From Candidatus Aenigmatarchaeota archaeon (GTDB taxonomy: Archaea; Aenigmatarchaeota; Aenigmatarchaeia; GW2011-AR5; GCA-2688965), in contig JBDRKV010000048.1 in the NCBI GenBank assembly GCA_043813745.1, positions 1 through 40,420 on the forward strand: 40,420 nucleotides of DNA, in the 5' to 3' direction. Below are positions 394 to 28,338 of this stretch, piece after piece. Under the pieces are notes generated by a model. The model saw nothing but the letters and a program-made list of their open reading frames with translations. It did no database searches and was not told where the DNA came from. Made by a program: the position numbers and the translations under genes. Each line of letters opens with the position of its first letter. Position 1 is the first letter of the stretch.

Positions 394-1096
394 AATATTC
401 ATGGCAGTCGCATGCATGCTCCTAGCCGGAACAGCATACGCAGGCGTGCTTCCGCTCAACCCAGAGAACATAGTCAATGACAGTTTCGTCGTCCAAGACA
501 ACATAACCTACGAGATAATAATGAAGGAAGTAGTCAACCCGTCGCAGCCAAACGAACGCATAATAATATTCGTCCAGGATGTGCAAAAATTATCCGAACT
601 AGAAGCAAAAAGAGCGCTGGCTGCCGAGAAAAAGATGAATGCAGAAAACGAGCTGCAAGAAGCAGAGGCAGAGATAGCAGGCATTGAAAACCAGACTAGC
701 GAAGTCGTGGCACGAATAGCCATGGCAAACCAGGAAAAGGCAGACCTGCAGTCCATGCTTTCAGCAGAGCTAGATAAACAGAAAAATATTTCCAGCAACC
801 TTGCAGGAAATATTATCGTGTCGCCTACAAACCTCATGATAATCGTCGTCCTTACCGTCATAATCTTGATAGTCGGCATTGCTGCGAAACTGGGTTCGTT
901 CTTCAAGGAAAAACCTGGTGAAAAAGAAGCAGCAGAAAGCGAAGCTGCTAAAAAAGAAGCAGCAGAAACCAAAGAAGCCGCTGAAAAGGCAGTAAAAAGC
1001 GGAGAAGTGAAAAAAACCAATGAACAGCCTGCTACAGCAGATGACACGCAAACAAGCACAGAACCCGATAACACTGATTCTGAACCAAATGCTTAA
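383..1096 (+). CDS. secreted or membrane-anchored coiled-coil protein, paralog of the upstream ORF
   Basis: ORF 371..1096. The Met at 383 gives a signal-peptide-like MISKIFMAVACMLLAGTAYAG. It has a coiled-coil middle, the TM segment IIVVLTVIILIVGIAA and a K/E/A-rich tail. It shares the GN(V/I)I(L/V)SP motif before the TM with ORF 16..393. Confidence 0.5.
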   Translation: MISKIFMAVACMLLAGTAYAGVLPLNPENIVNDSFVVQDNITYEIIMKEVVNPSQPNERIIIFVQDVQKLSELEAKRALAAEKKMNAENELQEAEAEIAGIENQTSEVVARIAMANQEKADLQSMLSAELDKQKNISSNLAGNIIVSPTNLMIIVVLTVIILIVGIAAKLGSFFKEKPGEKEAAESEAAKKEAAETKEAAEKAVKSGEVKKTNEQPATADDTQTSTEPDNTDSEPNA

Positions 1097-2798: not shown

Positions 2799-4628
2799 CT
2801 ACTTATCAACACTGAAAAACTCCTTAATATGTTTCTCAGGCTCAGTGGTCGCCTTTATCTGCATGTTGACTGGCAGGATCCTCTTGTAATTCAGCCAGCC
2901 AAAACGCTTGTCCATGAACACGCACACGCCCCTATCTATTTCAGAACGTATGCAGCGTCCAGCAGACTGTATGGCCCTTTGAACAGCCGGATACGAGTAA
3001 GCGTATTCCCAGCCCCTGCCGAATTTGCCGTCATAATAGCTTATCAATGACTTGGTCTTTAGCGTTGGACGTTCAAGCGACAAACCTACTATTATGACGC
3101 CATTCAGGTTTAGTCCTGGAAAGTCCACGCCTTCGCCAAACGAGCCCGCCTGCACGCCGGCAAGCACAGCGTTTTGGTTTTTCACGAAATTATCGTAGAA
3201 ATCAGCCTTTTGGCTTTTGCTCATCTCAGGCTCTTCTATAAACATGGTCTTTTCAGTGCGCACGTAATGCACGATGTCGCCGAGCATCCTATACGAGGGA
3301 AAGAACACAGCCACATTCCCGCGAATAGCATTCACGCATCTGCTGATATAATCGCCGAATTTCATATACTCGTCCGTGCAGCGGTTTTCATACTTGGTTG
3401 TCACGTCTGGTATAAGCAAGTCCAGCCTGTTTTTAGTAGGAAACGGCGACGTGTATTCAGCACATCGCGTCCTGGATTTGTCAAATCCGAGCAAATCTAT
3501 GTACATCTGCGCGGGCTTCAGCGTGCCTGACATGCATATGCATGCATGAACAGAATCAAGTATGTCTCTCGAGAGCAGTGCAGGATCCAGACAGTCATAG
3601 CTCAATGCTATATACGGTCTGTTGCTCCTCCCCCTGTCTTCACTCACAATACGCGTGAACCCGTTGAAGTCCTTGCGCCACATGTCCAGGAAATCTCCAA
3701 CAGAGCCGATTGATGATTTCTGTTTCTTGGCGCGTATCTCTTCCCCAATGTCCTGCATCTGCACGACCAGTTCGTCGTAATCATGCAATTCTTCAACCAG
3801 CTCGCTCTTTTCTACGAAACGTTCTTCTTTCGTATAGATGCCTTGCAATACGCTGTTCAATTGTTGCATATAATCAGCTACCTCGGGCGCATACGCGATT
3901 GATTCCTTGTACGCGGCGCGCAAGCCAATGCTCGTGAGCCGCCTTGAAAGCAGCTTTATTATCCTGTTCGGAAGATTATGCGCCTCGTCCACGACAAGTA
4001 TAACATCGTCAAGTTTTTTTTCAGCCTTGCCCAGAAGCTGCTCGCGCGCAGAAGAAAAAATATGATAATAATCAGACACCACGACGTCTGCTTCGCTGAT
4101 AAGGCGGACAGCCATTTCAAATGTGCAGAAACGCTGCGTTAGCTCTTTTAGTTGCTCTGCGTGCAGCGGTCCTTGGGCGCGCACGACAGATAAGCATCCG
4201 AACGCGCCTGGCGTTAGTTTTGTTCCGTCTTTTGTCCGGTTGTAAAACGCGCATTCATGTTTTTTACGTTTTGACTTGCAGAATTCGCTGAAATCAGAAG
4301 ACGATAAATATTCATATACTGGCTGGGAGCACAGCCACTTCTTGCCGATTATGTCCACAGCAGTGATATCCGTGCCAGAGGTTTTGGCAATCTGTTTCAG
4401 CGTGTCTATAGCCATCCTATGCTGCGAGTGCCTGGGCGTCACAAAGAAAACAGTCTTGTTATGCTCAAGCGCGTATTCCAGCGTCGCAGAAAGCACAGCA
4501 GCTGTCTTGCCAATGCCAGCAGGCGCGTCTGCAAGCAGATGCTTTCGTTCGTTTACAGCTAGAGCAACGTCCTCCATGAATTGTTTCTGGCCTTCGCGCA
4601 CCTGAGAGAACGGAAAGAATTTGTTCAT
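2799..4628 (-). CDS. xpd: XPD/Rad3-family ATP-dependent DNA helicase with Fe-S domain
   Basis: Walker A DAPAGIGKTAA and DEAH box VVDEAHNL. Four Cys lie between the motifs (LCSQ, FCKS, ECAF, GCLS), typical of the XPD 4Fe-4S domain. Confidence 0.85.
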   Translation of the reverse strand: MNKFFPFSQVREGQKQFMEDVALAVNERKHLLADAPAGIGKTAAVLSATLEYALEHNKTVFFVTPRHSQHRMAIDTLKQIAKTSGTDITAVDIIGKKWLCSQPVYEYLSSSDFSEFCKSKRKKHECAFYNRTKDGTKLTPGAFGCLSVVRAQGPLHAEQLKELTQRFCTFEMAVRLISEADVVVSDYYHIFSSAREQLLGKAEKKLDDVILVVDEAHNLPNRIIKLLSRRLTSIGLRAAYKESIAYAPEVADYMQQLNSVLQGIYTKEERFVEKSELVEELHDYDELVVQMQDIGEEIRAKKQKSSIGSVGDFLDMWRKDFNGFTRIVSEDRGRSNRPYIALSYDCLDPALLSRDILDSVHACICMSGTLKPAQMYIDLLGFDKSRTRCAEYTSPFPTKNRLDLLIPDVTTKYENRCTDEYMKFGDYISRCVNAIRGNVAVFFPSYRMLGDIVHYVRTEKTMFIEEPEMSKSQKADFYDNFVKNQNAVLAGVQAGSFGEGVDFPGLNLNGVIIVGLSLERPTLKTKSLISYYDGKFGRGWEYAYSYPAVQRAIQSAGRCIRSEIDRGVCVFMDKRFGWLNYKRILPVNMQIKATTEPEKHIKEFFSVDK

Positions 4629-9841: not shown

Positions 9842-10156
9842 TTACTTTTTCTTATGAGCTGGCTCTTCAATCGCTACAGTCACTTGTGCCGGAGCTGCCT
9901 TGGCTTTCTTTTCCCTGCGCTCCCATTTTAGGTCTTCGTATTCAATCCATGCAACGATTAGGCCGAAGAATATCAGCACCAGACCGAACACGCCGGTAAA
10001 TACAACTGCAAAGGCTTGGAACGTTGTGTGCACAGCTTCAAACCCCAAAAGGAAGTTTGCTATGTTGTGCTGTCCGAAAAGCAGCCCTTCAGCGTACCAT
10101 ACTATACCGGCTATGAAGATTATCAGCCCGATTATTAGTTTTATTGCTGGATGCAT
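9842..10156 (-). CDS. small integral membrane protein (3 predicted TM helices)
   Basis: Three hydrophobic segments followed by a K/E/A-rich tail. Confidence 0.5.
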   Translation of the reverse strand: MHPAIKLIIGLIIFIAGIVWYAEGLLFGQHNIANFLLGFEAVHTTFQAFAVVFTGVFGLVLIFFGLIVAWIEYEDLKWERREKKAKAAPAQVTVAIEEPAHKKK

Positions 10157-10258
10157 CTTTTCACCAATCCTATATTGAAGAACAATATTTTTAAATAGAT
10201 AATATGATAGAATTGTACTTAGTACCCTATTTAAAAGTATGGATGATGATGTAAGATT

Positions 10259-12309: not shown

Positions 12310-12714
12310 ATGAATTATAATGAGATGCTGAAAAAAGCAAGGGAATCATTGCCTAAAAAAGTGGACAACGCCGTAAGGTTCGAGCCCAAGCAACCTTTGA
12401 TAGAAACGCATGGCAAAACCACTATTGTCAAGAATTTTTCTGAAATCGCGAAACATATACGTCGAGAGCCGAAGGACATAGCCAAATACCTCTTCAAGGA
12501 GCTCGGAGTTCCTGGCGCAATCACTGGCGAAACCCTTGTATTGAACGGCAGCATCGGCAGGGAAATAATAGCAAAACGCCTTGACAGCTTCATAAAGGAA
12601 TACGTCTGTTGTCACGAGTGCGGTAAAGTAGATACACAAATTGAGCACGAAGGCAGGATAGTTATGATAAAGTGCGAGGCATGCGGGGCTAAAAAGACCA
12701 TGGAGAGCTTTTAA
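12310..12714 (+). CDS. eif2b: translation initiation factor aIF2 beta
   Basis: KTTIVKNFSEIAKHIRREPKDIAKYLFKELG and a C-terminal zinc ribbon CHECG...CEACG. Confidence 0.9.
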   Translation: MNYNEMLKKARESLPKKVDNAVRFEPKQPLIETHGKTTIVKNFSEIAKHIRREPKDIAKYLFKELGVPGAITGETLVLNGSIGREIIAKRLDSFIKEYVCCHECGKVDTQIEHEGRIVMIKCEACGAKKTMESF

Positions 12715-13061
12715 TGGCAAAGCCAAAAAATGTAAAATGGTCTGGACTTTTGCGAAGCAAAAGGACAGGGTTTAGTTACAAGATATTCAAACAAGATGGT
12801 AACGTTCTTCTAGCAGTTGCTGACAAAAACCTACTAGGCAAGGATTTCGAGCAGGACGAGCTCATTTTGTCAGTGCCAAAAAACTTTTACTGCGATAAGA
12901 GCTGCGATGAAAAAAGCGTCGTCCGGGAAATGAAAAATGCGACCATCATAAACGCCGTGGGAAAAAACGTTATCGCGTTGATGTTGAAAAAAGAGTTAAT
13001 AAGCAGGGATAACATACTTACAGTCAGTGGTGTACCGCATGCGCAAGTCGTCAAGTTCTAG
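12714..13061 (+). CDS. DUF424-family protein
   Basis: VADKNLLGKDFE...FY...VSGVPHAQVV pattern. It follows aIF2 beta directly (start overlaps its stop), as is usual in archaea. Confidence 0.55.
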   Translation: MAKPKNVKWSGLLRSKRTGFSYKIFKQDGNVLLAVADKNLLGKDFEQDELILSVPKNFYCDKSCDEKSVVREMKNATIINAVGKNVIALMLKKELISRDNILTVSGVPHAQVVKF

Positions 13062-22277: not shown

Positions 22278-22606
22278 TATTCGCTATTTTTGGAAACAAC
22301 TTTAGACAAATTTGCGTCGCCTGCTTCAACAATCGCGACAGCAGAAGTAGCGACTTGTATACCAGACGCTCTGCCTAGCTCTGCCTTTTTCTCCACAGTC
22401 GTGTATGGTATGTTCTTTTCCTCGCAGAGAGCCGGTAGATGCATTATGATTTCTTTTGGTTCAACATCAGTGGCAGCGACAACAAGCTTGGCCTTGCCTC
22501 TTTCAACGGCCTTTGTAGCTTCATTTATTCCACGGCGTATCTTCCCGGTTTCCCTGGCTATCTCAATAGCTTCTAAAACTTTTGAATCATCGGCCATTTT
22601 TTTCAC
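22277..22606 (-). CDS. rpl7ae: ribosomal protein L7Ae (k-turn binding)
   Basis: [29 protein letters not shown]...[12 protein letters not shown]. Confidence 0.95.
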
Positions 22607-22640
22607 CTCATTTGATTTTTAGATTTTATTATATTTATTA

Positions 22641-22679
22641 TAATATGGTCTAGACTATTCCAAGGGGAATAGGGTAGTG
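22641..22679 (+). promoter_or_regulatory. family D leader, copy D1 (5' of rps27e), single hairpin
   Basis: TAATATGGTCTAGA CTATTCC-AAGG-GGAATAG GGTAGTG. Confidence 0.65.
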
Positions 22680-22685
22680 TTAATT

Positions 22686-22937
22686 ATGTCTTACACAAGA
22701 TATTTAAACATTGATTTAGAAGTGGTTTTGAGTGATACAGAAACCGAAGGTGTCTCATATATGAACGAACCAACAAGCAAGTTCCTGCGCGTGAAGTGCA
22801 ACAAATGCAAGAATGAGCAGGTAATATTCAATAAGGCATCAAGCACTGTAAAGTGCCTGGTTTGCGAGTCCGTAATAGCCGAGCCAACCGGCGGAAAGGC
22901 TGATGTCAAGACCAAGGTCCTGCATAGCGTAGACTAA
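22686..22937 (+). CDS. rps27e: ribosomal protein S27e
   Basis: Zinc ribbon KFLRVKCNKCKNEQVIF...VKCLVCESVIAEPTGGKA. The start is ambiguous. ATG 22686 follows the GGGTAGTG box of leader D1. ATG 22761 follows GAAGGTG and would give a more typical 58-aa protein. Confidence 0.85.
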   Translation: MSYTRYLNIDLEVVLSDTETEGVSYMNEPTSKFLRVKCNKCKNEQVIFNKASSTVKCLVCESVIAEPTGGKADVKTKVLHSVD

Positions 22938-22956
22938 TTTTTATCGTATTAAATAG

Positions 22957-23724
22957 GTGATTGAAATAGTGCGAAAACGTGGTGTACCGAATAAAGGCGA
23001 ATTTGTGGTGATAAAGGTAACCGTGGTAAACCCTAATTCTGCTAGCGTTCGTCTCTTGGAATACAACCTTGAAGGCATGATACACATCTCAGAAGTGGCG
23101 AGCGGCTGGATAAGGGACATTAGAAAATACCTAAAGCCGGACCAGATGCACATTGCGAAAGTGATATCCGTAGGCGAACGTGGCATGGGTCTGTCCATGA
23201 AAAACATAAACCAGAAGCAGATGACAGACAAGCAGAAAGAGTATGACCTGGACAACAAAGCCGAAAAGATGCTGGAAATGGCTGCCACAAAGCTTGGCAA
23301 GAACTTAGACCAGGCGTATGAAGAAGTCGGCTATGCGCTGCAGGAAAAATTCGGCTCATTATTCAAGGCATTTGAGACCTGCCTAAAAAAGCCGGAATCC
23401 CTGGAAAAGCGCGGCGTATCAACATCATGGGTTACCGTGATAAAAGAAATTGCCGAGAAGAGCATCGTGCAGAAAGAATTCCTGTTCAGGGCAGATCTGA
23501 TATTGAAAACATTCGAGCCAGATGGCATAGAACGCATCAAAGCCGTATTGCAAAACATTGGTAAAAGCACCAGCGTGTCGTACATAACAGCCCCGAGCTA
23601 TAGGCTGGCATACAAGGCGAAAAACGCGAAGATAGCCGAGTCTAAGTTCAAGGAATTGTTGGAAAACGCTGTGAAGGATGCCAAGAAGGTAAACATAGAA
23701 GCGTCCTACAATATATTAAAGTAA
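22957..23724 (+). CDS. eif2a: translation initiation factor aIF2 alpha
   Basis: S1 domain GEFVVIKVTVVNPNSASVRLLEYNLEGMIHISEVASGWIRDIR. GTG 22969, after AGGTGAT, is an alternative start. Confidence 0.9.
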   Translation: MIEIVRKRGVPNKGEFVVIKVTVVNPNSASVRLLEYNLEGMIHISEVASGWIRDIRKYLKPDQMHIAKVISVGERGMGLSMKNINQKQMTDKQKEYDLDNKAEKMLEMAATKLGKNLDQAYEEVGYALQEKFGSLFKAFETCLKKPESLEKRGVSTSWVTVIKEIAEKSIVQKEFLFRADLILKTFEPDGIERIKAVLQNIGKSTSVSYITAPSYRLAYKAKNAKIAESKFKELLENAVKDAKKVNIEASYNILK

Positions 23725-23745
23725 TTGGTGAGTAGGTAGTGAGAA

Positions 23746-23913
23746 ATGCCTAAAATCATGAAGAAATGTACAAAATGCAACAGCTATTCGCTGTCCGAGA
23801 AATGCCCATCCTGTGAATCAAAAACATCAAATCCGCACCCGGCGAAGTTTTCGCCAGAAGACCGGCACGGAAAGTACAGGCGCATTGCAAAGCTTATTAA
23901 AACCGCAGAATGA
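23746..23913 (+). CDS. nop10: H/ACA RNP protein Nop10 (55 aa, below ORF-track cut-off)
   Basis: Hand translation gives MPKIMKKCTKCNSYSLSEKCPSCESKTSNPHPAKFSPEDRHGKYRRIAKLIKTAE. It sits in the conserved position after aIF2 alpha. Confidence 0.85.
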   Translation: MPKIMKKCTKCNSYSLSEKCPSCESKTSNPHPAKFSPEDRHGKYRRIAKLIKTAE

Positions 23914-23960
23914 ATCATTAATAAATAATAGATTGAGAGGAATAGGGTTAGTTTGTATCA

Positions 23961-24056
23961 TAATATGGTATATGCTCAAAGGAATGAATTCCTTTGGCAT
24001 CTCAAAGGTATTCTATGAATGCCTTTGCAGAGACTATTTCAGGAGGAATAGGGTAT
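23961..24056 (+). promoter_or_regulatory. family D leader, copy D2 (5' of the PAC2-family gene), three hairpins
   Basis: TAATATGGTATATGC..., then CAAAGGAAT-GA-ATTCCTTTG, CAAAGGTAT-TCTATGA-ATGCCTTTG, and GA CTATTTC-AGGA-GGAATAG GGTAT. Confidence 0.65.
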
Positions 24057-24824
24057 ATGAAGACCGAAATCAAAATCTTGAAGAAGTTGCCAAAGATGAA
24101 GAACCCGATTCTAATAGAAGGGCTTCCAGGCGTAGGCAACGTAGGCAGGGTATGCGCTGGATACCTAATAAGCGAGCTGAAAGCGGAAAAATTCGCAGAG
24201 CTCGTTTCGCCGCACTTTCTGCCGCTAGTCGTGCTGGACAGCAACTCAGTAACGCACGTGCTGAAGAACGAATTCTATTACTGCAAGTCAAAGAAGCAGA
24301 GTCTCATAATACTCACAGGAGACAGCCAGAGCATAAGCGGCGAAGGCCATTATGAAATAGCCCATACTGCTTTGGAATTCGCGAAAAGTCTGGGCGTGAA
24401 GCAGGTCATAACCATAGGCGGTTTTGTCACCGAGCAACCGTCAAAAGTAGTAGGCGCAGTCTCTGAAAAAAGTCTTTTGAACAAATACAAGAAATTCAAC
24501 ATCACGTTTGGTAAATCACATCCAGTCGGCACGATCGTAGGAGCGTCCGGGCTATTTTGTGGCATGGCAAAAGATTACAAAATGGATGGGATATGCCTGA
24601 TGGGCGAAACCATTGGCTTTCCGCTGATAACAGACCCAAAGGCAGCCGACCGTGTGCTGCAAACGTTGAAGAGCATGCTGAAACTAAACGTGGATTTGAA
24701 AAAACTGGAAAAGGCAGTCAAGGAGATGAACGAGCAGATAAAGAAAACCGAGCACATCCACAGGAAGATGCTTGAGGACACGTCCAAGCCAGAGAGCAAG
24801 GAGCAGATGAAATACATCGGATAA
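24057..24824 (+). CDS. PAC2-family proteasome assembly chaperone-like protein
   Basis: ILIEGLPGVGNVGRVCAGYL, and a conserved position after nop10. ATG 24057 follows the GGGTAT box of leader D2. Confidence 0.7.
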   Translation: MKTEIKILKKLPKMKNPILIEGLPGVGNVGRVCAGYLISELKAEKFAELVSPHFLPLVVLDSNSVTHVLKNEFYYCKSKKQSLIILTGDSQSISGEGHYEIAHTALEFAKSLGVKQVITIGGFVTEQPSKVVGAVSEKSLLNKYKKFNITFGKSHPVGTIVGASGLFCGMAKDYKMDGICLMGETIGFPLITDPKAADRVLQTLKSMLKLNVDLKKLEKAVKEMNEQIKKTEHIHRKMLEDTSKPESKEQMKYIG

Positions 24825-24874
24825 AAAGTTAACTGTTTATTAAAGTATGAAAGGATTAAGAGGTGTTGATGATT

Positions 24875-25072
24875 ATGGATGAACTGACCAGATTTGAAAA
24901 AACGCGGATAATCAGTGCCAGGGCTTTGCAAATATCAATGGGTGCGCCTATTCTTGTCAAGACAGACTTGCAGGATCCAAAGGATATCACGCTGCTCGAA
25001 TTTGAAAAAGGCGTTTTGCCTATAACAGCCAGCATGCGCGAGCCGAAAAGGCTCGGAAAGCCCGTAGCATGA
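24875..25072 (+). CDS. rpoK: DNA-directed RNA polymerase subunit K (Rpo6)
   Basis: [22 protein letters not shown]...EFEKGVLPI. Confidence 0.9.
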
Positions 25073-25098
25073 TGTTGCACTAATATCTTTATGTGCAA
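25069..25098 (+). terminator. family F stem-loop after rpoK
   Basis: ATGATGTTGCAC-TAATATCTTTAT-GTGCAA. The first 19 nt match 38823-38841 at 18/19. Confidence 0.45.
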
Positions 25099-25137
25099 TA
25101 ATTTTAACAAGGTGGATGCGTTATTAGAAAAGAAAGC

Positions 25138-25824
25138 TTGTTGATACCAAGAGAAGAGTATTTGTCTAGCGGATGCCATATCGGCCTGATTTACAAAACC
25201 AAGGATATGAAGCGTTTCATATATAAGATCCGTCCTAACGGGCTTTCTGTTCTTAATCTGTCCATGCTTGACGAGCGCATCCACAATGCAGCCAGCATGC
25301 TTTCAAAAGCGAAAAAAGTGCTGGTTGTCTCAAGAAAGGAAGGCGGACACAAGGCAATAATAGCATTCGCGCGCGCAATAGGCGCTATTGCAATGAAAGG
25401 AAGATTCATGCCAGGATCATTAACGAATCCTACTTACAAGGCTTTCTTTGAGCCGGATATCCTGTTCACCGTGGACACGGCAAGCGACCGCCAGGCAATA
25501 GGCGAGGCAACGCAGATGCGCATACCAATCATAGCGCTGGCAGACACGTTCTCGTCCACATCCTACATTGACCTTATAATTCCATGCAACAACAAGAGCA
25601 AGAATTCCATTGGATTGATTCTGTTCCTGCTTGCGCGCGAAATCAACAACCTGCAAGGCAAGCAATTCAGTGCGAAATTGGAAGACTTCACGCCTCCTAA
25701 AGAAGAAGGCAGGGAAACGGTCATGGATGAAAACGTGGAAAGCACTGAAAAGCCGGAAGAATTGATAGAACAGGAAAAACGAAAAGAAGCAAAGATGAAA
25801 AAGAGAGACAAAACTAAAGAATAA
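25138..25824 (+). CDS. rps2: ribosomal protein S2 (uS2) with Lys/Glu-rich C-terminal tail
   Basis: LIPREEYLSSGCHIGL...RFIYKIRPNGLSVLNL...IPIIALADT. The start codon is uncertain (TTG 25138; the frame opens after 25107). Confidence 0.9.
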   Translation: MLIPREEYLSSGCHIGLIYKTKDMKRFIYKIRPNGLSVLNLSMLDERIHNAASMLSKAKKVLVVSRKEGGHKAIIAFARAIGAIAMKGRFMPGSLTNPTYKAFFEPDILFTVDTASDRQAIGEATQMRIPIIALADTFSSTSYIDLIIPCNNKSKNSIGLILFLLAREINNLQGKQFSAKLEDFTPPKEEGRETVMDENVESTEKPEELIEQEKRKEAKMKKRDKTKE

Positions 25825-25870
25825 AATCTTGTTCTTACAAATAATATATTAGGAAGCGGATGAGTAGAAG

Positions 25871-25912
25871 TAATATGGTGCTAGACTGATTCCGAAGGAA
25901 TCAGGATAGGTG
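25871..25912 (+). promoter_or_regulatory. family D leader, copy D3 (5' of the MEMO-family gene), single hairpin
   Basis: TAATATGGTGCTAGA CTGATTCC-GAA-GGAATCAG GATAGGTG. Confidence 0.65.
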
Positions 25913-25918
25913 TCTTAT

Positions 25919-26707
25919 ATGAGAGCACTTGGTTTCTATCCTGTCGACCCGGAAAAGCTGGAAAAGCAAGTAACGTCTTTTCTAGAACAAGACGTCAAGC
26001 CCGTGCAGGATGCACTGGGCGCAATCGTTCCGCACGCAGGCTACCCTTTCTCAGGCATGCTTGCTGCGAAAACGTTGAAGGCTGCGAAAACCAAGAATCA
26101 TCGTTTCATAATCATGGGTCCGAACCACATGGGACACGACACGCTGATAGATAATGGAGAATGGCGCACGCCATTGGACAAGTTGAAGTTGGACAACGAC
26201 TTCATAAAGAAATTGAATATCAAACAAGATTCGACGTTAGAACATAGCATTGAAGTCCAGCTGCCCATATTGCAGAAACTATACAACGACTTTAGTTTTG
26301 TTCCATTAGTTGTAGGTCCGAACACCTTCGACGAACTAAAGCAGCTTGCAAAGCAGCTGATGACAAGCGACCATTTCTATATAGCAAGCAGCGATTTCAT
26401 CCATTTCGGCCCGAACTACAACTACGTGCCTTCTGAAGCCGGTCCAGGCCAGCAGGACCAGCTGAAATGGGTCAAGAACATTGACCGAAAGCTTGCAGAA
26501 TTAATATGCAATCTGAAAGCAAAAGAATTTTTTGAAGAAATCGAGAAAAAAGAGTATACAGTGTGCGGCTACCGCGCAATAACGCTCTTCATGCTGCTCA
26601 TGGAAAAGCTCGGAGCCAAGCAGGGCCAGACAATCGACTACGCAACAAGTTACGACGTTTACCCAAATCACTCCTTTGTTTCGTACGTGGGTTTCGTGTT
26701 TAGTTAG
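25919..26707 (+). CDS. MEMO1-family protein (AmmeMemoRadiSam system protein B)
   Basis: GAIVPHAGYPFSG, IIMGPNH and SSDFIHFG. Confidence 0.8.
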   Translation: MRALGFYPVDPEKLEKQVTSFLEQDVKPVQDALGAIVPHAGYPFSGMLAAKTLKAAKTKNHRFIIMGPNHMGHDTLIDNGEWRTPLDKLKLDNDFIKKLNIKQDSTLEHSIEVQLPILQKLYNDFSFVPLVVGPNTFDELKQLAKQLMTSDHFYIASSDFIHFGPNYNYVPSEAGPGQQDQLKWVKNIDRKLAELICNLKAKEFFEEIEKKEYTVCGYRAITLFMLLMEKLGAKQGQTIDYATSYDVYPNHSFVSYVGFVFS

Positions 26708-26770
26708 GGTTTCCAAGGGATTGTGCGCTGCGAAGCACGCACGTTTTCCGCAAGCGCTTTCTTAAAGGGC
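26708..26770. repeat. family E element, copy E2 (after the MEMO-family gene)
   Basis: GGTTTCCAAGGGAT-[GTGCGCTGC GAA GCACGCAC]-GTTTTCCGCAAGCGCTTTCTTAAAGGGC. Confidence 0.8.
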
Positions 26771-26819
26771 TTACCCAAATCACTCCTTTGTTTCGTACGT
26801 GGGTTTCGTTTTCAGTTAA
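26771..26819 (+). pseudogene. duplicate of the last 15 codons plus stop of the MEMO-family gene
   Basis: 49 bp, 46/49 identical to 26659-26707. All three differences are at third codon positions (GTG/GTT, TTT/TTC, TAG/TAA). Confidence 0.85.
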
Positions 26820-27346
26820 TTCTTTTTCTGCTTCCACAACAAATATCCAAACCCAACGAACGATACAATAATCAGTATAACGCCGATGATTAACTCAGCT
26901 GGCAATGTGGTAGTTATGGGTTGTGCAACAGTCGTTGTCGTCTGGTTGCCGGCACCAGCCACAGTAGCAAGTTTCTCAGCAGCCTGGTCGCGTGTTGCAG
27001 ACGCTGCAGCATATAACGCAGATTTTGTCGTCTGATACACGCCGACAATCAATGCAATCGCAGAAAGCGACAGCGTTATCACGAATGAATAGAACTTCGG
27101 CTTGAACAGCTTTGTGCCAGTGGACGTCAGAGTGTAGTATTTCCACTTGTTGCCATTTTCCTTCCTGACAACGATTCCGCTCTTCTCTAAGACACTCAAA
27201 TGTTCGGTTACAGTCGTTACATGCTTGCCCAGCTTGCCGGCAAGCTCAGAAGCCGTATACGGCCGTTCGTTTAAAAGCTTAGCAATTTCTTGGCGTGTTT
27301 CGTTGGAAAGCGCCTTGAACGACTCCTTATTCAATACCTCTGGCAT
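26816..27346 (-). CDS. ArsR-type winged-helix regulator fused to C-terminal transmembrane segments
   Basis: FKALSNETRQEIAKLL...YTASELAGKLGKHVTTVTEHLSVLEKSGIV, followed by two hydrophobic helices. Confidence 0.65.
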   Translation of the reverse strand: MPEVLNKESFKALSNETRQEIAKLLNERPYTASELAGKLGKHVTTVTEHLSVLEKSGIVVRKENGNKWKYYTLTSTGTKLFKPKFYSFVITLSLSAIALIVGVYQTTKSALYAAASATRDQAAEKLATVAGAGNQTTTTVAQPITTTLPAELIIGVILIIVSFVGFGYLLWKQKKN

Positions 27347-27405
27347 GTTAATACTGTGAAAAAGAACTGTTTTTAACCTTTTTCATTTGGTAGGGCTGAC
27401 CTTAT

Positions 27406-27507
27406 TTAATATGGTCTATCTGAGAAGGTATCATTTAGATACCTTCTAGATTTTGAAGACATCCGAGATGTCTTCACAAAGACTGATGCAAAAGCATCAG
27501 GGTAGGG
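27406..27507 (+). promoter_or_regulatory. family D leader, copy D4 (5' of tRNA-Ser), three hairpins
   Basis: TTAATATGGTCTATCTG, AGAAGGTATC-ATTTA-GATACCTTCT, AGATTTT, GAAGACATC-CGA-GATGTCTTC, ACAAAGA, CTGATGC-AAAA-GCATCAG, GGTAGGG. Confidence 0.7.
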
Positions 27508-27547
27508 TTTGTCGTTTTTAAATGATGCTTGATAAAAAATCTAACAT

Positions 27548-27633
27548 GCCGCGATGGCAGAGAGGCCTAATGCGCTAGCCTGGAAAGCTAGTAACACTTC
27601 GGTGTTGCAAGAGTTCGAATCTCTTTCGCGGCG
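27548..27633 (+). tRNA. tRNA-Ser(GGA)
   Basis: Hand-folded. Acceptor GCCGCGA/TCGCGGC, anticodon stem CTAGC/GCTAG, loop CTGGAAA, long variable arm ACACTTCGGTGT, T arm AAGAG-TTCGAAT-CTCTT, discriminator G. Confidence 0.9.
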
Positions 27634-27693
27634 CTTGATGTTCAATATATATTTAAAAACTCCTATGAAGAACTAAAGACTACATTAAAATCA

Positions 27694-27794
27694 TAATATG
27701 ATCTATCTGAAAAGGCTTTCAAAGAAAGCCTTTTAGATTTGGAAGACATCTTTGATGTCTTCACAAAGACTGTTCTAAGAAGAACAGGGTAGTG
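27694..27794 (+). promoter_or_regulatory. family D leader, copy D5 (5' of rpl10e), three hairpins
   Basis: TAATATGATCTATCTG, AAAAGGCTTTC-AAA-GAAAGCCTTTT, AGATTTG, GAAGACATC-TTT-GATGTCTTC, ACAAAGA, CTGTTCT-AAGA-AGAACAG, GGTAGTG. Confidence 0.7.
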
Positions 27795-27801
27795 ATTCAA
27801 A

Positions 27802-28338
27802 ATGGGACTTCGTCCAGGCAAGTGTTATAGGAAAATGCAACGCGCGTTTACGCGCCAGTCTCAGCGCAAGCCACGCAAAAGCTACATAAAGGGCGTGCCG
27901 CGCCATGGTATAAGCAGCTTTGAGATGGGTAAGAAAAAGAATTATTCAAATACATTGCACTTGGTGTCAAAGCAGAACGTGCAAATACGCCATAATTCCC
28001 TGGAATCAAGTCGTATCGCTACTGTACAGCATCTGGAGAAAAAAATAAGCAAGGGCGCCACGTTTTTCCTGCGCCTCAGGCCATATCCTCACCAGGTCCT
28101 GCGCGAGAACGCGCTAGCAACCGGTGCAGGCGCAGACCGCTTCCAGCAGGGCATGCGCCTATCTTTCGGAAAACCTATAGGCACAGCTGCCCGCGTCAAG
28201 ATCGGCCAGACAATTTTAGAAGTCTCAGTAGACAAGAATAACATCGATGTCGCCAAAGGCGCGCTGAAAGCAGCGCGACACAAGCTGCCCACGACCTGCA
28301 AAATAATAATCATGGAAAACAAGATTGCGAAAGTTTGA
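27802..28338 (+). CDS. rpl10e: ribosomal protein L10e (uL16)
   Basis: MGLRPGKCYRKMQRAFTRQS ... RLRPYPHQVLRENA. Confidence 0.95.
   Translation: MGLRPGKCYRKMQRAFTRQSQRKPRKSYIKGVPRHGISSFEMGKKKNYSNTLHLVSKQNVQIRHNSLESSRIATVQHLEKKISKGATFFLRLRPYPHQVLRENALATGAGADRFQQGMRLSFGKPIGTAARVKIGQTILEVSVDKNNIDVAKGALKAARHKLPTTCKIIIMENKIAKV

What the first reader, a model, noticed from the sequence alone, without database searches (positions are those of the whole stretch)
22641..22679. Family D: a modular leader (TAATATGG box, 1-3 hairpins, GGTAG box) in front of rps27e, the PAC2-family gene, the MEMO-family gene, tRNA-Ser and rpl10e
Five plus-strand copies (22641-22679, 23961-24056, 25871-25912, 27406-27507, 27694-27794) share three parts. 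They start with (A/T)TAATATG(G/A)T. They end with a terminal hairpin of the form GA-CT[5-6 nt]-loop-[5-6 nt]AG. That hairpin is followed at once by G(G/A)TAG(G/T)(G/T). The terminal stems are CTATTCC/GGAATAG, CTATTTC/GGAATAG, CTGATTCC/GGAATCAG, CTGATGC/GCATCAG and CTGTTCT/AGAACAG: different sequence, same structure and flanks. In the four protein-gene copies the GGTAG box sits 0-7 nt before an ATG, so it probably doubles as the ribosome-binding site. AGGTAGTGAT also precedes rnp2. The TAATAT box may be the TATA element. One copy precedes a tRNA, which argues against a purely translational role. A weaker look-alike precedes rpl15e (10199-10232). Structured 40-100-nt leaders shared by unrelated genes are not a standard archaeal feature.
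Basis: partly seen in the sequence, partly recalled or inferred. Interest (0 to 1): 0.7.

Follow-up and report, generated by a model that had tools for sequence, protein, structure and literature searches.

The report
Shared stem-loop leader before archaeal genes
A small DPANN archaeon (Aenigmarchaeota-like) and its relatives carry one conserved, modular stem-loop cassette just upstream of many unrelated, mostly translation-related genes. It is almost certainly transcribed as RNA, matches no described RNA family, and its exact job is still unknown.

Summary
All five copies exist, and a sixth lies at 12733-12768.

About 33 more copies occur in at least a dozen related uncultured-archaeon (Aenigmarchaeota-type) contig sets. 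Each points the same way as the gene that follows it.

CUA in the 5' box pairs with UAG in the 3' box (helix P1). P1 encloses a 2x2 purine internal loop (GA/GG) and a variable hairpin (P2). The extra hairpins of the long forms sit inside that internal loop.

Covariation is strong: 98.6% of cells paired, 7 of 11 pairs with double-sided changes, and 0 of 500 shuffles as good. RNAalifold predicts the same fold on its own. G.U pairs and purine-rich loops favour the sense strand.

Orthologue comparisons at EF1A and rpl10e show each gene's own conserved BRE/TATA block upstream of the element. The element therefore lies in the 5' UTR, and TAATAT is probably not the TATA box.

The best reading is a transcribed, portable, structured leader whose 3' strand (AGGGUAG) supplies or abuts the ribosome-binding site. 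Its function is unresolved; translation, stability or factor binding are all possible.

Rival readings are a promoter cassette, a selfish palindromic insertion and a nut-like elongation signal. There is no Rfam match and no K-turn.

The parts
22641..22677 (+). Copy c1, short form. Layout: tail TAATATGGT, P1 5' strand CTA, internal loop GA, P2 CTATTCC-AAGG-GGAATAG, internal loop GG, P1 3' strand TAG. It lies between the divergent rpl7ae and rps27e genes, 23 nt UPSTREAM of the conserved rps27e TATA.
   Evidence: Model R1 scores it 61.8 bits.
23961..24056 (+). Copy c2, long form. Layout: TAATATGGT-ATA, hp1 (23973-23999), hp2 (24000-24031), GA, P2 (24034-24051), GG, TAT. The PAC2 start codon is at 24057. 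P1 here is AUA:UAU, a compensated variant of CUA:UAG, and its two strands lie about 80 nt apart.
   Evidence: The R1 local hit on the terminal module scores 19.3 bits.
25871..25909 (+). Copy c3, short form with one extra G in the tail. P1 is CUA:UAG, the internal loop is GA/GA, and P2 is CTGATTCC-GAA-GGAATCAG. The sequence then runs GTGTCTTAT-ATG (MEMO, ATG at 25919). TAG+GTG forms a canonical AGGTG SD. The copy lies between rps2 and MEMO, which abut or overlap in relative L001.
   Evidence: R1 scores it 49.2 bits.
27407..27505 (+). Copy c4, long form: hp1 27419-27450, hp2 27455-27475, linker ACAAA, GA, P2 27483-27500, GG, TAG. No ORF follows it. tRNA-Ser (27548-27634) has its own TATA at 27515-27523, downstream of c4.
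   Evidence: (family D3).
27694..27792 (+). Copy c5, long form, 80% identical to c4 over their shared 69 nt (family D3): hp1 27706-27737, hp2 27742-27762, P2 27770-27787. It ends GGGTAGTGATTCAAA-ATG (rpl10e, ATG at 27802). It is inserted between the ancestral rpl10e TATA and the start codon.
   Evidence: alignment A4.
12733..12768 (+). P1 is CUG:CAG, a compensated variant. It lies just after eIF2-beta, inside the N-terminal extension of the DUF424 ORF.
   Evidence: R1 scores it 56.7 bits. Pfam DUF424 starts at residue 26.
27650..27659 (+). Context, not part of the element: the ancestral rpl10e TATA box (TATTTAAAAA), at the same position after the tRNA-Ser 3' end as in relatives L001 and L004. 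Its inferred transcription start is about 12 nt before c5.
22700..22709 (+). Context: the conserved rps27e promoter word (AC)ATATTTAAAC, shared with L001 and L004. It lies downstream of c1.
23938..23950 (+). A relic 3' half-copy (GGAATAGGGTTAG) just upstream of c2. Similar relics occur at 27387-27396 (TTTGGTAGGG, before c4) and 27675-27681 (AAAGACT, before c5). Tandem or partial copies are also seen in L009, L013, L017, L019 and L023.

Best explanation
Family D is a lineage-specific, transcribed cis-RNA module. It is a portable structured leader found in 5' UTRs, in intercistronic spacers, in pre-tRNA and pre-rRNA leaders, and once inside a tRNA intron.

Anatomy (shown):
- A single-stranded AU-rich tail, UAAUAUGGU.
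- A 3-bp helix P1 (CUA:UAG).
- A conserved 2x2 purine internal loop (GA/GG, or GA/GA).
- A hairpin P2 that always opens with C-G and U-A pairs, has a free-varying but paired interior, and usually ends in a C(GRA)G loop.
- Extra hairpins can be inserted in the 5' side of the internal loop (window long forms) or in the P2 apex (L011b, L034).

How it most likely works (inferred):
- The gene's own upstream BRE/TATA drives transcription through the element.
- The purine-rich 3' strand (A)AGGGUAG lies 0-11 nt before the AUG. It serves as the ribosome-binding tract, or merges into one (TAG+GUGA gives AGGUGA).
- The hairpin holds that tract in a defined, partly sequestered conformation, and the AU-rich tail offers a single-stranded entry or standby site.
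- The element would therefore set or regulate translation initiation, and possibly leader stability, of highly expressed genes. A common trans-acting factor recognising the invariant internal-loop region may be involved.
- Copies before tRNAs, before 23S rRNA and in an intron would be removed by processing. They are probably by-products of how the cassette spreads, by duplication and insertion.
For: 1. Structure.
- On 22 short copies, 98.6% of cells are paired and 7 of 11 pairs show double-sided changes (33 cells). The shuffles reached neither the paired fraction nor the covariation score (0 of 500), and slid-partner controls collapse.
- RNAalifold independently returns P1 + P2.

2. P1 covaries.
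- GGTCTA goes with GGGTAG in about 25 copies.
- GGTATA goes with GGGTAT in c2, L009a, L011b and L025.
- Other compensated variants are CTG:CAG (c6), CTC:GAG (L017b) and ATAC:GTAT (L024b).

3. The sense strand is the one under selection. There are 11 G.U pairs in sense folds against 3 in antisense folds, and 122 of 153 loop bases are purines.

4. The element lies downstream of conserved promoters.
- EF1A orthologues share the block AAG(C/G)TTAAAAAGATTAGCAA..CT.AG.
- The element-free L036 goes from that TATA to the ATG in 43 nt, with an SD (GGTGAT).
- L006 has the short element and L034 an expanded one, both between that block and the ATG.
- At rpl10e the tRNA-Ser 3' end and the TATA are conserved in the window, L001 and L004, and c5 is inserted after them.

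5. Orientation always follows the downstream gene, even in divergent pairs (L009 a/b, L024 a/b).

6. About 22 copies end 0-13 nt before a start codon. Their genes include EF1A, S4, S12, S15, L30, L24e, L10e, porA, SMC and a V-ATPase D-like gene; apart from EF1A, L24e and L10e these names are read from N-terminal sequence and were not profile-checked. Relatives use GGTGA-N4-5-ATG, and copies 0-4 nt from the ATG lack any other SD.

7. Orthologous copies L010 and L018 keep both boxes, while the stem gained 1 bp on both sides.
Against: - No transcription start was measured. All start positions are inferred from TATA position.
- c1 and c4 lie upstream of the canonical promoters of rps27e and tRNA-Ser, so they are not in those canonical leaders.
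- TAATAT preceded by an A-rich tract looks like BRE/TATA. In short forms it sits about 30 nt before the 3' box and 31-34 nt before tRNA +1 (L026, L024a), which is a promoter-like geometry.
- An AUG 0-4 nt after a helix is an awkward ribosome-binding arrangement.
- A translational role cannot explain the tRNA, rRNA and intron copies.
- Presence or absence varies among close orthologues (L036, L006, L034, L032), as expected for a dispensable or selfish insert.
- Many P2 stems are weak as RNA (-2 to -5 kcal/mol).
- The 5' box conservation in non-window copies is partly imposed by my search patterns.
Confidence: 0.55

Rival explanations
1. Portable promoter cassette acting at the DNA level. The A-rich tract plus TAATATGG would be BRE/TATA. 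Transcription would start about 26 nt downstream, at the purines of A|GGGTAG. The palindrome would lie in the initially melted region, where a stable C(GNA)G mini-hairpin on the non-template strand might help the promoter open. The resulting mRNAs would have 5-15 nt leaders.
For: - Positions -1 to -7 before the box are 50-60% A. TAATAT is the only strongly positioned AT block.
- The distance from the box to the 3' box is 28-34 nt in 24 of 26 short copies.
- tRNA +1 lies 31-34 nt from the box centre (L026, L024a). Ordinary tRNA promoters here sit 28-29 nt away.
- The element precedes tRNAs and 23S rRNA as well as mRNAs.
- Tandem arrays exist (L017, L019, L023).
- Spacing to the ATG is bimodal, as in leaderless versus SD-led genes.
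- L011b abuts a divergent ORF, leaving no room for another promoter.
Against: - Conserved canonical TATA blocks lie upstream of the element at EF1A and rpl10e, and 10-12 nt upstream of the three tRNA-linked copies.
- The clade's TATA boxes are of the TTTAAAAA type, unlike TAATATGG.
- ATGG is better conserved than TAAT in degenerate copies (L017c, L019a, L023b).
- P1 pairs bases that would lie at about -20 and +5, and about 80 nt apart in c2. A promoter bubble cannot span that.
- In long or expanded forms (c2, c4, c5, L011b, L034, L029) the box is 65-125 nt from the 3' box.
- The purine internal loop and G.U bias mean the antisense arm of any cruciform would be poor.
Confidence: 0.2
2. Selfish or near-neutral palindromic insertion, REP/BIME- or MITE-like. 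The cassette and its hairpin modules would spread by duplication and insertion. They would persist only where they are harmless: short leaders, intercistronic spacers and introns. Pairing would be kept because the spreading mechanism needs the hairpin, not because the host uses it.
For: - Presence is patchy among orthologous EF1A leaders, and the element is absent from the syntenic regions of the closest relatives L001 and L004 and of L028 and L030.
- Hairpins are nested inside the element (c2, c4, c5, L011b, L034).
- The same inner hairpin module occurs in L011b and in the L032 leader.
- Tandem and partial relics are common.
- There are orphan copies (c1, c4), a copy inside a tRNAi intron and a copy read through as coding sequence (c6).
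- Leaders in these genomes are so short that any insertion into one would end up next to the start codon.
Against: - No terminal inverted repeats, target duplications or transposase were identified.
- Orientation follows the gene rather than one DNA strand, even within 400 nt to 3 kb (L024, L009). That argues against a replication-strand-specific ssDNA transposase.
- Where the element abuts the ATG the canonical SD has been replaced, and these are essential, highly expressed genes (EF1A, S4, S12, S15). The 3' box must therefore work in expression.
- The internal loop and tail are conserved across MAGs with window-level GC of 33-47%.
- Stems differ widely within one genome, unlike copies recognised by a transposase.
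Confidence: 0.15
3. Co-transcriptional RNA signal, working like nut or boxA-boxB. A promoter-proximal or spacer hairpin plus a conserved single-stranded box would load a factor onto RNA polymerase. That would make transcription of rRNA, tRNA and highly expressed genes resistant to termination or pausing.
For: - This reading explains mRNA, tRNA and rRNA-spacer copies alike.
- The element lies within about 17 nt of the inferred transcription start.
- The hairpin has a free stem, purine-rich loops and invariant flanking sequence, which resembles boxB/boxA logic.
Against: - No archaeal system of this kind is known, and no factor was identified.
- Many copies are operon-internal.
- The tight abutment to the AUG and the SD-like 3' strand are not needed for such a role.
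- The rRNA and tRNA copies are few (4-5) and may stem from one or two insertion events.
Confidence: 0.07

Closest known systems
Ribosomal-protein leader RNAs and other cis-regulatory 5' UTR motifs (Rfam r-leader families; the Methanococcus L1 operator)
   Same: A structured RNA immediately upstream of the start codons of translation-apparatus genes, with covarying stems and a conserved internal loop that could be a protein site.
   Different: Each known r-leader belongs to one operon and mimics the rRNA site of its own protein. Here one motif serves many unrelated genes, plus tRNA and rRNA leaders and an intron. It is modular and is gained and lost between close relatives. It gives no Rfam hit even at E <= 10.
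REP/BIME and other dispersed extragenic palindromes, and MITEs
   Same: Short, repeated, hairpin-forming units in intergenic DNA. They show mosaic or nested architecture, tandem and partial copies, and patchy distribution.
   Different: Family D is strictly co-oriented with the downstream gene and lies at its 5' side, next to the start codon. It has invariant flanks and an invariant internal loop but free stems. No terminal inverted repeats, target duplications or RAYT/transposase were seen. The host is archaeal.
Archaeal BRE/TATA core promoter, and 'putative mobile promoters' (promoter reuse in prokaryotes, PMC3575422)
   Same: An AT-rich box preceded by an A-rich tract, about 30 nt before the RNA start region. 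The same upstream sequence is reused before non-homologous genes.
   Different: Canonical conserved TATA blocks lie upstream of the element at EF1A and rpl10e. The box-to-gene distance is 65-125 nt in long forms. The element also has a covarying helix that spans the presumed start site.
SD-sequestering hairpins and RNA thermometers (fourU, ROSE); translational-operator hairpins
   Same: A hairpin whose 3' arm and flank carry the purine ribosome-binding tract next to the AUG. Many P2 stems are a U-run paired to AAAAG, followed by GGG.
   Different: No evidence of temperature or ligand control. The stems are not conserved in sequence. The element also occurs before non-coding RNAs.
K-turn / L7Ae-binding motifs
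   Same: Tandem purine mismatches (GA/GA in c3 and c6) next to a C-G pair.
   Different: There is no 3-nt bulge. The three bases that would form it (CUA) covary as helix P1. Most copies have GA/GG, so the G.A/A.G tandem is incomplete.
lambda nut / rrn boxB-boxA antitermination sites
   Same: A hairpin with a free stem and a purine-rich loop plus a conserved single-stranded box, found in the leaders and spacers of rRNA, tRNA and highly expressed operons.
   Different: No sequence similarity, no known archaeal machinery, and the element abuts start codons.

Membership tests
Any described RNA family (Rfam 15) | A covariance-model match at the family's gathering score | tested here: not met
   Only tRNA-Ser matches in the window. 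At E <= 10 over 22500-27900 nothing overlaps any copy's conserved core (one 17-bit SNORD44 match at E 7.4 runs into the first 19 nt of c5).
Structured cis-regulatory RNA leader (generic kind) | A conserved secondary structure supported by compensatory changes | tested here: met
   98.6% of cells are paired, 7 of 11 pairs show double-sided changes, and 0 of 500 shuffles do as well. RNAalifold returns the same structure.
Structured cis-regulatory RNA leader (generic kind) | Located inside the transcript, downstream of the transcription start | tested here: inconclusive
   The location is inferred from conserved upstream BRE/TATA blocks at EF1A and rpl10e. No transcription start data are available, and c1 and c4 lie upstream of the canonical promoters.
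Structured cis-regulatory RNA leader (generic kind) | A demonstrated effect on expression, or a bound ligand or protein | not testable with these tools
   This needs reporter, toeprint or pull-down experiments.
Archaeal BRE/TATA core promoter | The TATA box is the promoter element that positions the transcription start about 26 nt downstream of its centre | tested here: inconclusive
   The geometry fits in short forms. However, canonical conserved TATA blocks lie upstream, and in long forms the box is 65-125 nt from the gene.
Archaeal BRE/TATA core promoter | Sequence resembles the clade's own TATA consensus | tested here: not met
   The relatives' promoters are of the TTTAAAAA or TTTTAAA(T) type. 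TAATATGG is not. This is a judgement by eye; no PWM was built.
K-turn (L7Ae site) | A canonical stem, then a 3-nt bulge, then tandem sheared G.A/A.G pairs, then a non-canonical stem | tested here: not met
   There is no bulge. The CUA that would be the bulge pairs with UAG and covaries. Most copies have G.G in place of one G.A.
MITE / IS-derived element | Terminal inverted repeats, target-site duplication, and copies independent of gene orientation | tested here: not met
   The ends TAATATGG and GGGTAG are not inverted repeats, and no consistent duplication was seen. Orientation always follows the downstream gene, including in divergent pairs. No full genome was available for a census.
REP/RAYT-type palindromes | A conserved palindrome sequence with a 5' GTAG, and an associated Y1 transposase (RAYT) | tested here: inconclusive
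   Stem sequences are not conserved within a genome, and GTAG lies 3' of the hairpin rather than 5'. Transposase genes were not searched for beyond the loci in hand.
tRNA intron bounded by a bulge-helix-bulge | Two 3-nt bulges separated by a 4-bp helix at the element's ends | tested here: not met
   The element has a symmetric 2x2 internal loop, not staggered bulges. Only in L020, where the element lies inside a real tRNAi intron, can a relaxed bulge-helix-bulge be drawn, and that uses the tRNA flanks.

The most novel reading that the evidence does not exclude
The element could be the common operator of a lineage-wide RNA regulon. In this reading one dedicated factor, or the ribosome or RNA polymerase itself, recognises the invariant tail + P1 + GA/GG loop. 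That would co-ordinate or boost expression of the translation machinery: r-proteins, EF1A, tRNAs and rRNA. The mechanism could be a non-SD, structure-guided mode of translation initiation. It could instead be an archaeal counterpart of nut/boxA-boxB processive antitermination. The element would also be portable, so genes could be recruited to the regulon by insertion of the cassette.
Probability: 0.12. Interest if true: 0.85.

Novelty: new variant of a known kind. Interest (0 to 1): 0.6.

Why it matters
Archaeal 5' leaders are usually short and unstructured. Known structured leaders are specific to one operon.

Here a single covarying stem-loop cassette sits in front of EF1A, many r-protein genes, metabolic genes, tRNAs and 23S rRNA in a whole group of uncultured DPANN archaea. 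It is gained, lost and expanded between close relatives.

If it is functional, it points to an unrecognised post-transcriptional or co-transcriptional control layer in reduced-genome archaea, or to a non-canonical ribosome-binding mode. It would also show how genes can be wired into such a layer by a portable RNA module.

In practical terms, it is a candidate new RNA family. It also flags likely errors in gene-start annotation: the extended PAC2, S27e and DUF424 ORFs here run into or through the element.

Tried and rejected
- **Own genome.** Exact-protein look-ups of window proteins found nothing on record. The window's own genome is not in the collections, so no full-genome census was possible.
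- **Syntenic regions of relatives.** L001, L004, L028 and L030 contain no copy.
- **Rfam.** Nothing at gathering or relaxed thresholds.
- **ARAGORN.** It missed the intron-containing tRNAs next to some copies. The Rfam tRNA model found two of them.
- **K-turn or L7Ae site.** Rejected on anatomy.
- **C/D-box or H/ACA sRNA, hammerhead or other small ribozyme, bulge-helix-bulge.** Considered by eye and rejected, because the motifs are absent or not conserved.
- **Mini-ORF ATG-GTC-TAG in the 5' box.**
  - Considered as a leader peptide, a coupling relay or a shunt.
  - The ATG is highly conserved, and the upstream gene's stop codon is often the box's own TAA or TAG (L008, L010, L018, L027).
  - The stop is lost in c6 and L017b, and the ATG is absent in the divergent variants L029 and L031. 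A mini-ORF also makes no sense before tRNAs. It is kept only as a curiosity.
- **Pairing with 16S rRNA.** Pairing of the tail or 3' box with the 16S 3' end from L024 gave only modest, non-specific duplexes. AAAGGG could pair with the terminal CCUUU, but the mature 16S end is unknown.
- **Cruciform-compaction model.** Extruded hairpins restoring TATA-to-start spacing in long forms was rejected, because the residual spacing does not fit.
- **Literature.** Searches found no description of this motif. One search failed on syntax.
- **Possible metatranscript contig.** L033 starts 44 nt before the EF1A ATG, but the break falls inside a repeated hairpin module, so it says nothing about the transcription start.

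Full report
**What is in the window**

The window is a 40.4-kb contig with 44.8% GC. It is archaeal and dense in translation genes. PAC2 and EF1A homologues place it among Aenigmarchaeota-type DPANN archaea.

The five copies are at the stated coordinates. The terminal-module pattern GACT-N13-15-AGGRTAK hits exactly these five sites, against 0.10 expected. AGGRTAGKK gives 5 hits against 0.74 expected. A hairpin scan finds the same flanks nowhere else in the window.

A sixth short copy lies at 12733-12768, after eIF2-beta. The 10199 'look-alike' scores only 9.1 bits, E = 2.7.

**The family outside the window**

The window's own genome is not in the searchable collections. Its closest relatives share the gene order but have no element there: L001 and L004 (69-71% PAC2 identity), and also L028 and L030.

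A pattern scan for the short form found 7 loci in four 'uncultured archaeon' MAGs. A second pattern found 16 metagenome loci. With secondary copies in their flanks this gives about 33 further copies.

More divergent variants exist:
- L029 has a long form between S28e and L24e.
- L031 has a variant tail, GGTAATACGTAGACT.
- L034 and L035 have P2 expanded by two inner hairpins.

The 5' box conservation among the pattern-derived copies is partly circular. The window copies, the secondary copies and the L029, L031 and L034 variants are not.

**Anatomy**

The two 'boxes' pair. The layout is:
- tail UAAUAUGGU;
- helix P1, CUA:UAG;
- a 2x2 internal loop, GA/GG (GA/GA in c3 and c6);
- hairpin P2, which always opens C-G then U-A, followed by free but paired positions;
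- a loop that is mostly C(GAA)G or C(GGA)G.

On 22 short copies, 98.6% of cells pair and 7 of 11 pairs show changes on both sides (33 cells). The shuffles matched neither the paired fraction nor the covariation score (0 of 500), and sliding the partners destroys the signal. RNAalifold predicts the same structure unaided.

P1 itself covaries:
- GGTCTA with GGGTAG in about 25 copies;
- GGTATA with GGGTAT in c2, L009a, L011b and L025;
- CTG:CAG in c6, CTC:GAG in L017b, and ATAC:GTAT in L024b.

The orthologous copies L010 and L018 keep both boxes while the stem grew by one pair on both sides.

In the window's long forms, hp1 and hp2 lie between A12 and G13, inside the internal loop. P1 would therefore close a multi-branch structure. 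In L011b and L034 the extra hairpins are in the P2 apex instead.

Sense folds contain 11 G.U pairs against 3 in antisense folds, and 80% of loop bases are purines. The structure is therefore selected on the sense strand.

**Context**

Every copy is co-oriented with the gene that follows it. This holds even in divergent pairs a few hundred bases to 3 kb apart (L009 a/b, L024 a/b).

About 22 copies end 0-13 nt before a start codon. The genes include EF1A, S4, S12, S15, L30, L24e, L10e, PAC2, MEMO, porA, SMC, a V-ATPase D-like gene and a methyltransferase-like gene. Several of these names (S4, S12, S15, L30, porA, SMC and the last two) are read from N-terminal sequence by eye and were not profile-checked.

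Other contexts:
- Three copies abut tRNA 5' ends (L024a, L026, L017).
- One lies about 130-180 nt before 23S rRNA (L024b).
- One forms most of the anticodon intron of an initiator tRNA (L020).

Many copies are operon-internal or flush with the upstream stop codon. Examples are porD-porA, S5-L30, S13-S4, S28e-L24e, rps2-MEMO, nop10-PAC2 and eIF2b-DUF424.

Spacing from the 3' box to the ATG is bimodal:
- At 0-4 nt there is no other SD.
- At 6-11 nt, TAG+GTGA forms the clade's normal SD. Relatives use GGTGA-N4-5-ATG.

**Promoter or RNA?**

TAATAT preceded by an A-rich tract looks like BRE/TATA. In short forms it would place a transcription start at the 3' box, and the distances to the tRNA 5' ends fit this. 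I took this reading seriously.

Orthologue comparison argues against it. EF1A genes of four lineages share a conserved promoter block, AAG(C/G)TTAAAAAGATTAGCAA..CT.AG:
- In the element-free L036 the ATG follows the TATA by 43 nt, with a normal SD.
- In L006 a short element lies between that block and the ATG, and in L034 an expanded one. The SD has been replaced by AGGGTAG.
- L032 has a different hairpin-rich leader.

The same holds at rpl10e. The tRNA-Ser 3' end and the following TTTAAAA box are conserved in the window, L001 and L004, and c5 (about 100 nt) is inserted between that box and the ATG.

Three tRNA-linked copies also have canonical TATA boxes 10-12 nt upstream of the box. The clade's TATA boxes are of the TTTAAAAA type.

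Taken together with a helix (P1) that would straddle any such start site, and with long forms that put the box 65-125 nt from the gene, the evidence favours an element transcribed from the gene's own promoter. Transcription starts remain inferred, not measured.

c1 and c4 are exceptions. They lie upstream of the conserved rps27e promoter and of the tRNA-Ser TATA respectively.

**Mechanism**

- **Shown:** a conserved, covarying, sense-strand structure next to start sites.
- **Inferred:** it is RNA in leaders. Its purine 3' strand is, or merges with, the ribosome-binding tract. The hairpin and the AU-rich tail shape access to that tract. The invariant internal loop and tail suggest recognition by a common factor.
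- **Unexplained by this reading:** the tRNA, rRNA and intron copies, the tandem and partial relics, the nested hairpins and the patchy orthologue distribution. These show that the cassette spreads by duplication and insertion, so a selfish component is likely.

I give 0.55 to the transcribed-leader reading. The rivals get 0.20 (promoter cassette), 0.15 (purely selfish palindrome) and 0.07 (nut-like co-transcriptional signal).

**Comparison with known elements**

There is no Rfam match, and literature searches found no description of this motif.

- It works most like a structured ribosome-binding leader or translational operator.
- It spreads like REP/BIME or 'mobile promoter' sequences.
- It is not a K-turn, a MITE in the strict sense or a bulge-helix-bulge intron.

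I classify it as a new variant of a known kind, namely a cis-acting structured leader or dispersed palindromic module. It is a good candidate for a new RNA family.

Noticed in passing
L020 7379-7531 (-): This is an initiator tRNA-Met gene (A1:U72, GGG/CCC anticodon stem) with two introns. The roughly 47-nt anticodon intron is essentially one complete short element. A relaxed bulge-helix-bulge can be drawn using the GGG that immediately follows the 3' box (the run overlaps its last G). The D-loop intron also forms a GCGAUGC-GAA-GCAUCGC hairpin.
   Followed up: partly
L024 1-1075: The 16S 3' end (1-118, +) and the 23S 5' end (about 1021, +) are separated by an antisense, intron-containing tRNA-Ala(TGC) on the minus strand. 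That tRNA has its own promoter and an element copy. A second, variant copy faces the 23S gene.
   Followed up: partly
window 7795, 18338, 18579, 39718 (D1); 13476, 18726, 18799, 19616, 26744 (D2); 20586, 20643, 22595 (D5): The window holds other dispersed repeat families, several of them hairpin-forming, mostly around minus-strand r-protein genes.
   Followed up: no
window 26659-26706 and 26771-26818: A 48-nt duplication (96% identical) of the 3' end of the MEMO gene flanks a D2 repeat copy (26744-26773). It looks like an insertion or duplication scar.
   Followed up: no
window 12714-13061: The DUF424 ORF starts at an ATG that overlaps the eIF2-beta stop codon and reads through copy c6. The Pfam domain begins at residue 26, and the codon at the expected start is ATA. 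Either the element is translated as an N-terminal extension or the start is non-canonical.
   Followed up: partly
L011 about 3920-3950 (-) and L032 about 9950-9985 (+): The same inner hairpin module, GCAGCAAGCTAC(T/C)-loop-(A/G)GTAGCTTATTG, occurs in two places. One is inside P2 of an element in one MAG. The other is in the EF1A leader of another MAG, with a compensatory U:A to C:G change. Hairpin modules are therefore themselves a dispersed family.
   Followed up: partly
window 22698-22712; L001 about 7975; L004 about 3990; L024 about 465-480 (-): A nearly identical promoter word, ACATATTTAAACA, precedes rps27e in three genomes. It also precedes the element plus tRNA-Ala unit in L024.
   Followed up: no
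window 11887, 23735, 27788 (+) and 4861 (-): GGTAGTGA occurs 4 times against 0.47 expected, before rnp2, nop10 and rpl10e. It appears to be a recurrent ribosome-binding-site variant of this genome.
   Followed up: partly
L030 17577-18918; L032 1-2918: Related genomes carry a reverse transcriptase plus bAvd pair (DGR-like) and an SRP54 gene interrupted by an intein.
   Followed up: no
window 24015-24056 and 22686-22760: Automatic gene calls extend PAC2 (269 aa against 255 aa) and S27e (83 aa against 58 aa) upstream into or next to the element. These are likely start-codon mis-annotations caused by the cassette.
   Followed up: partly
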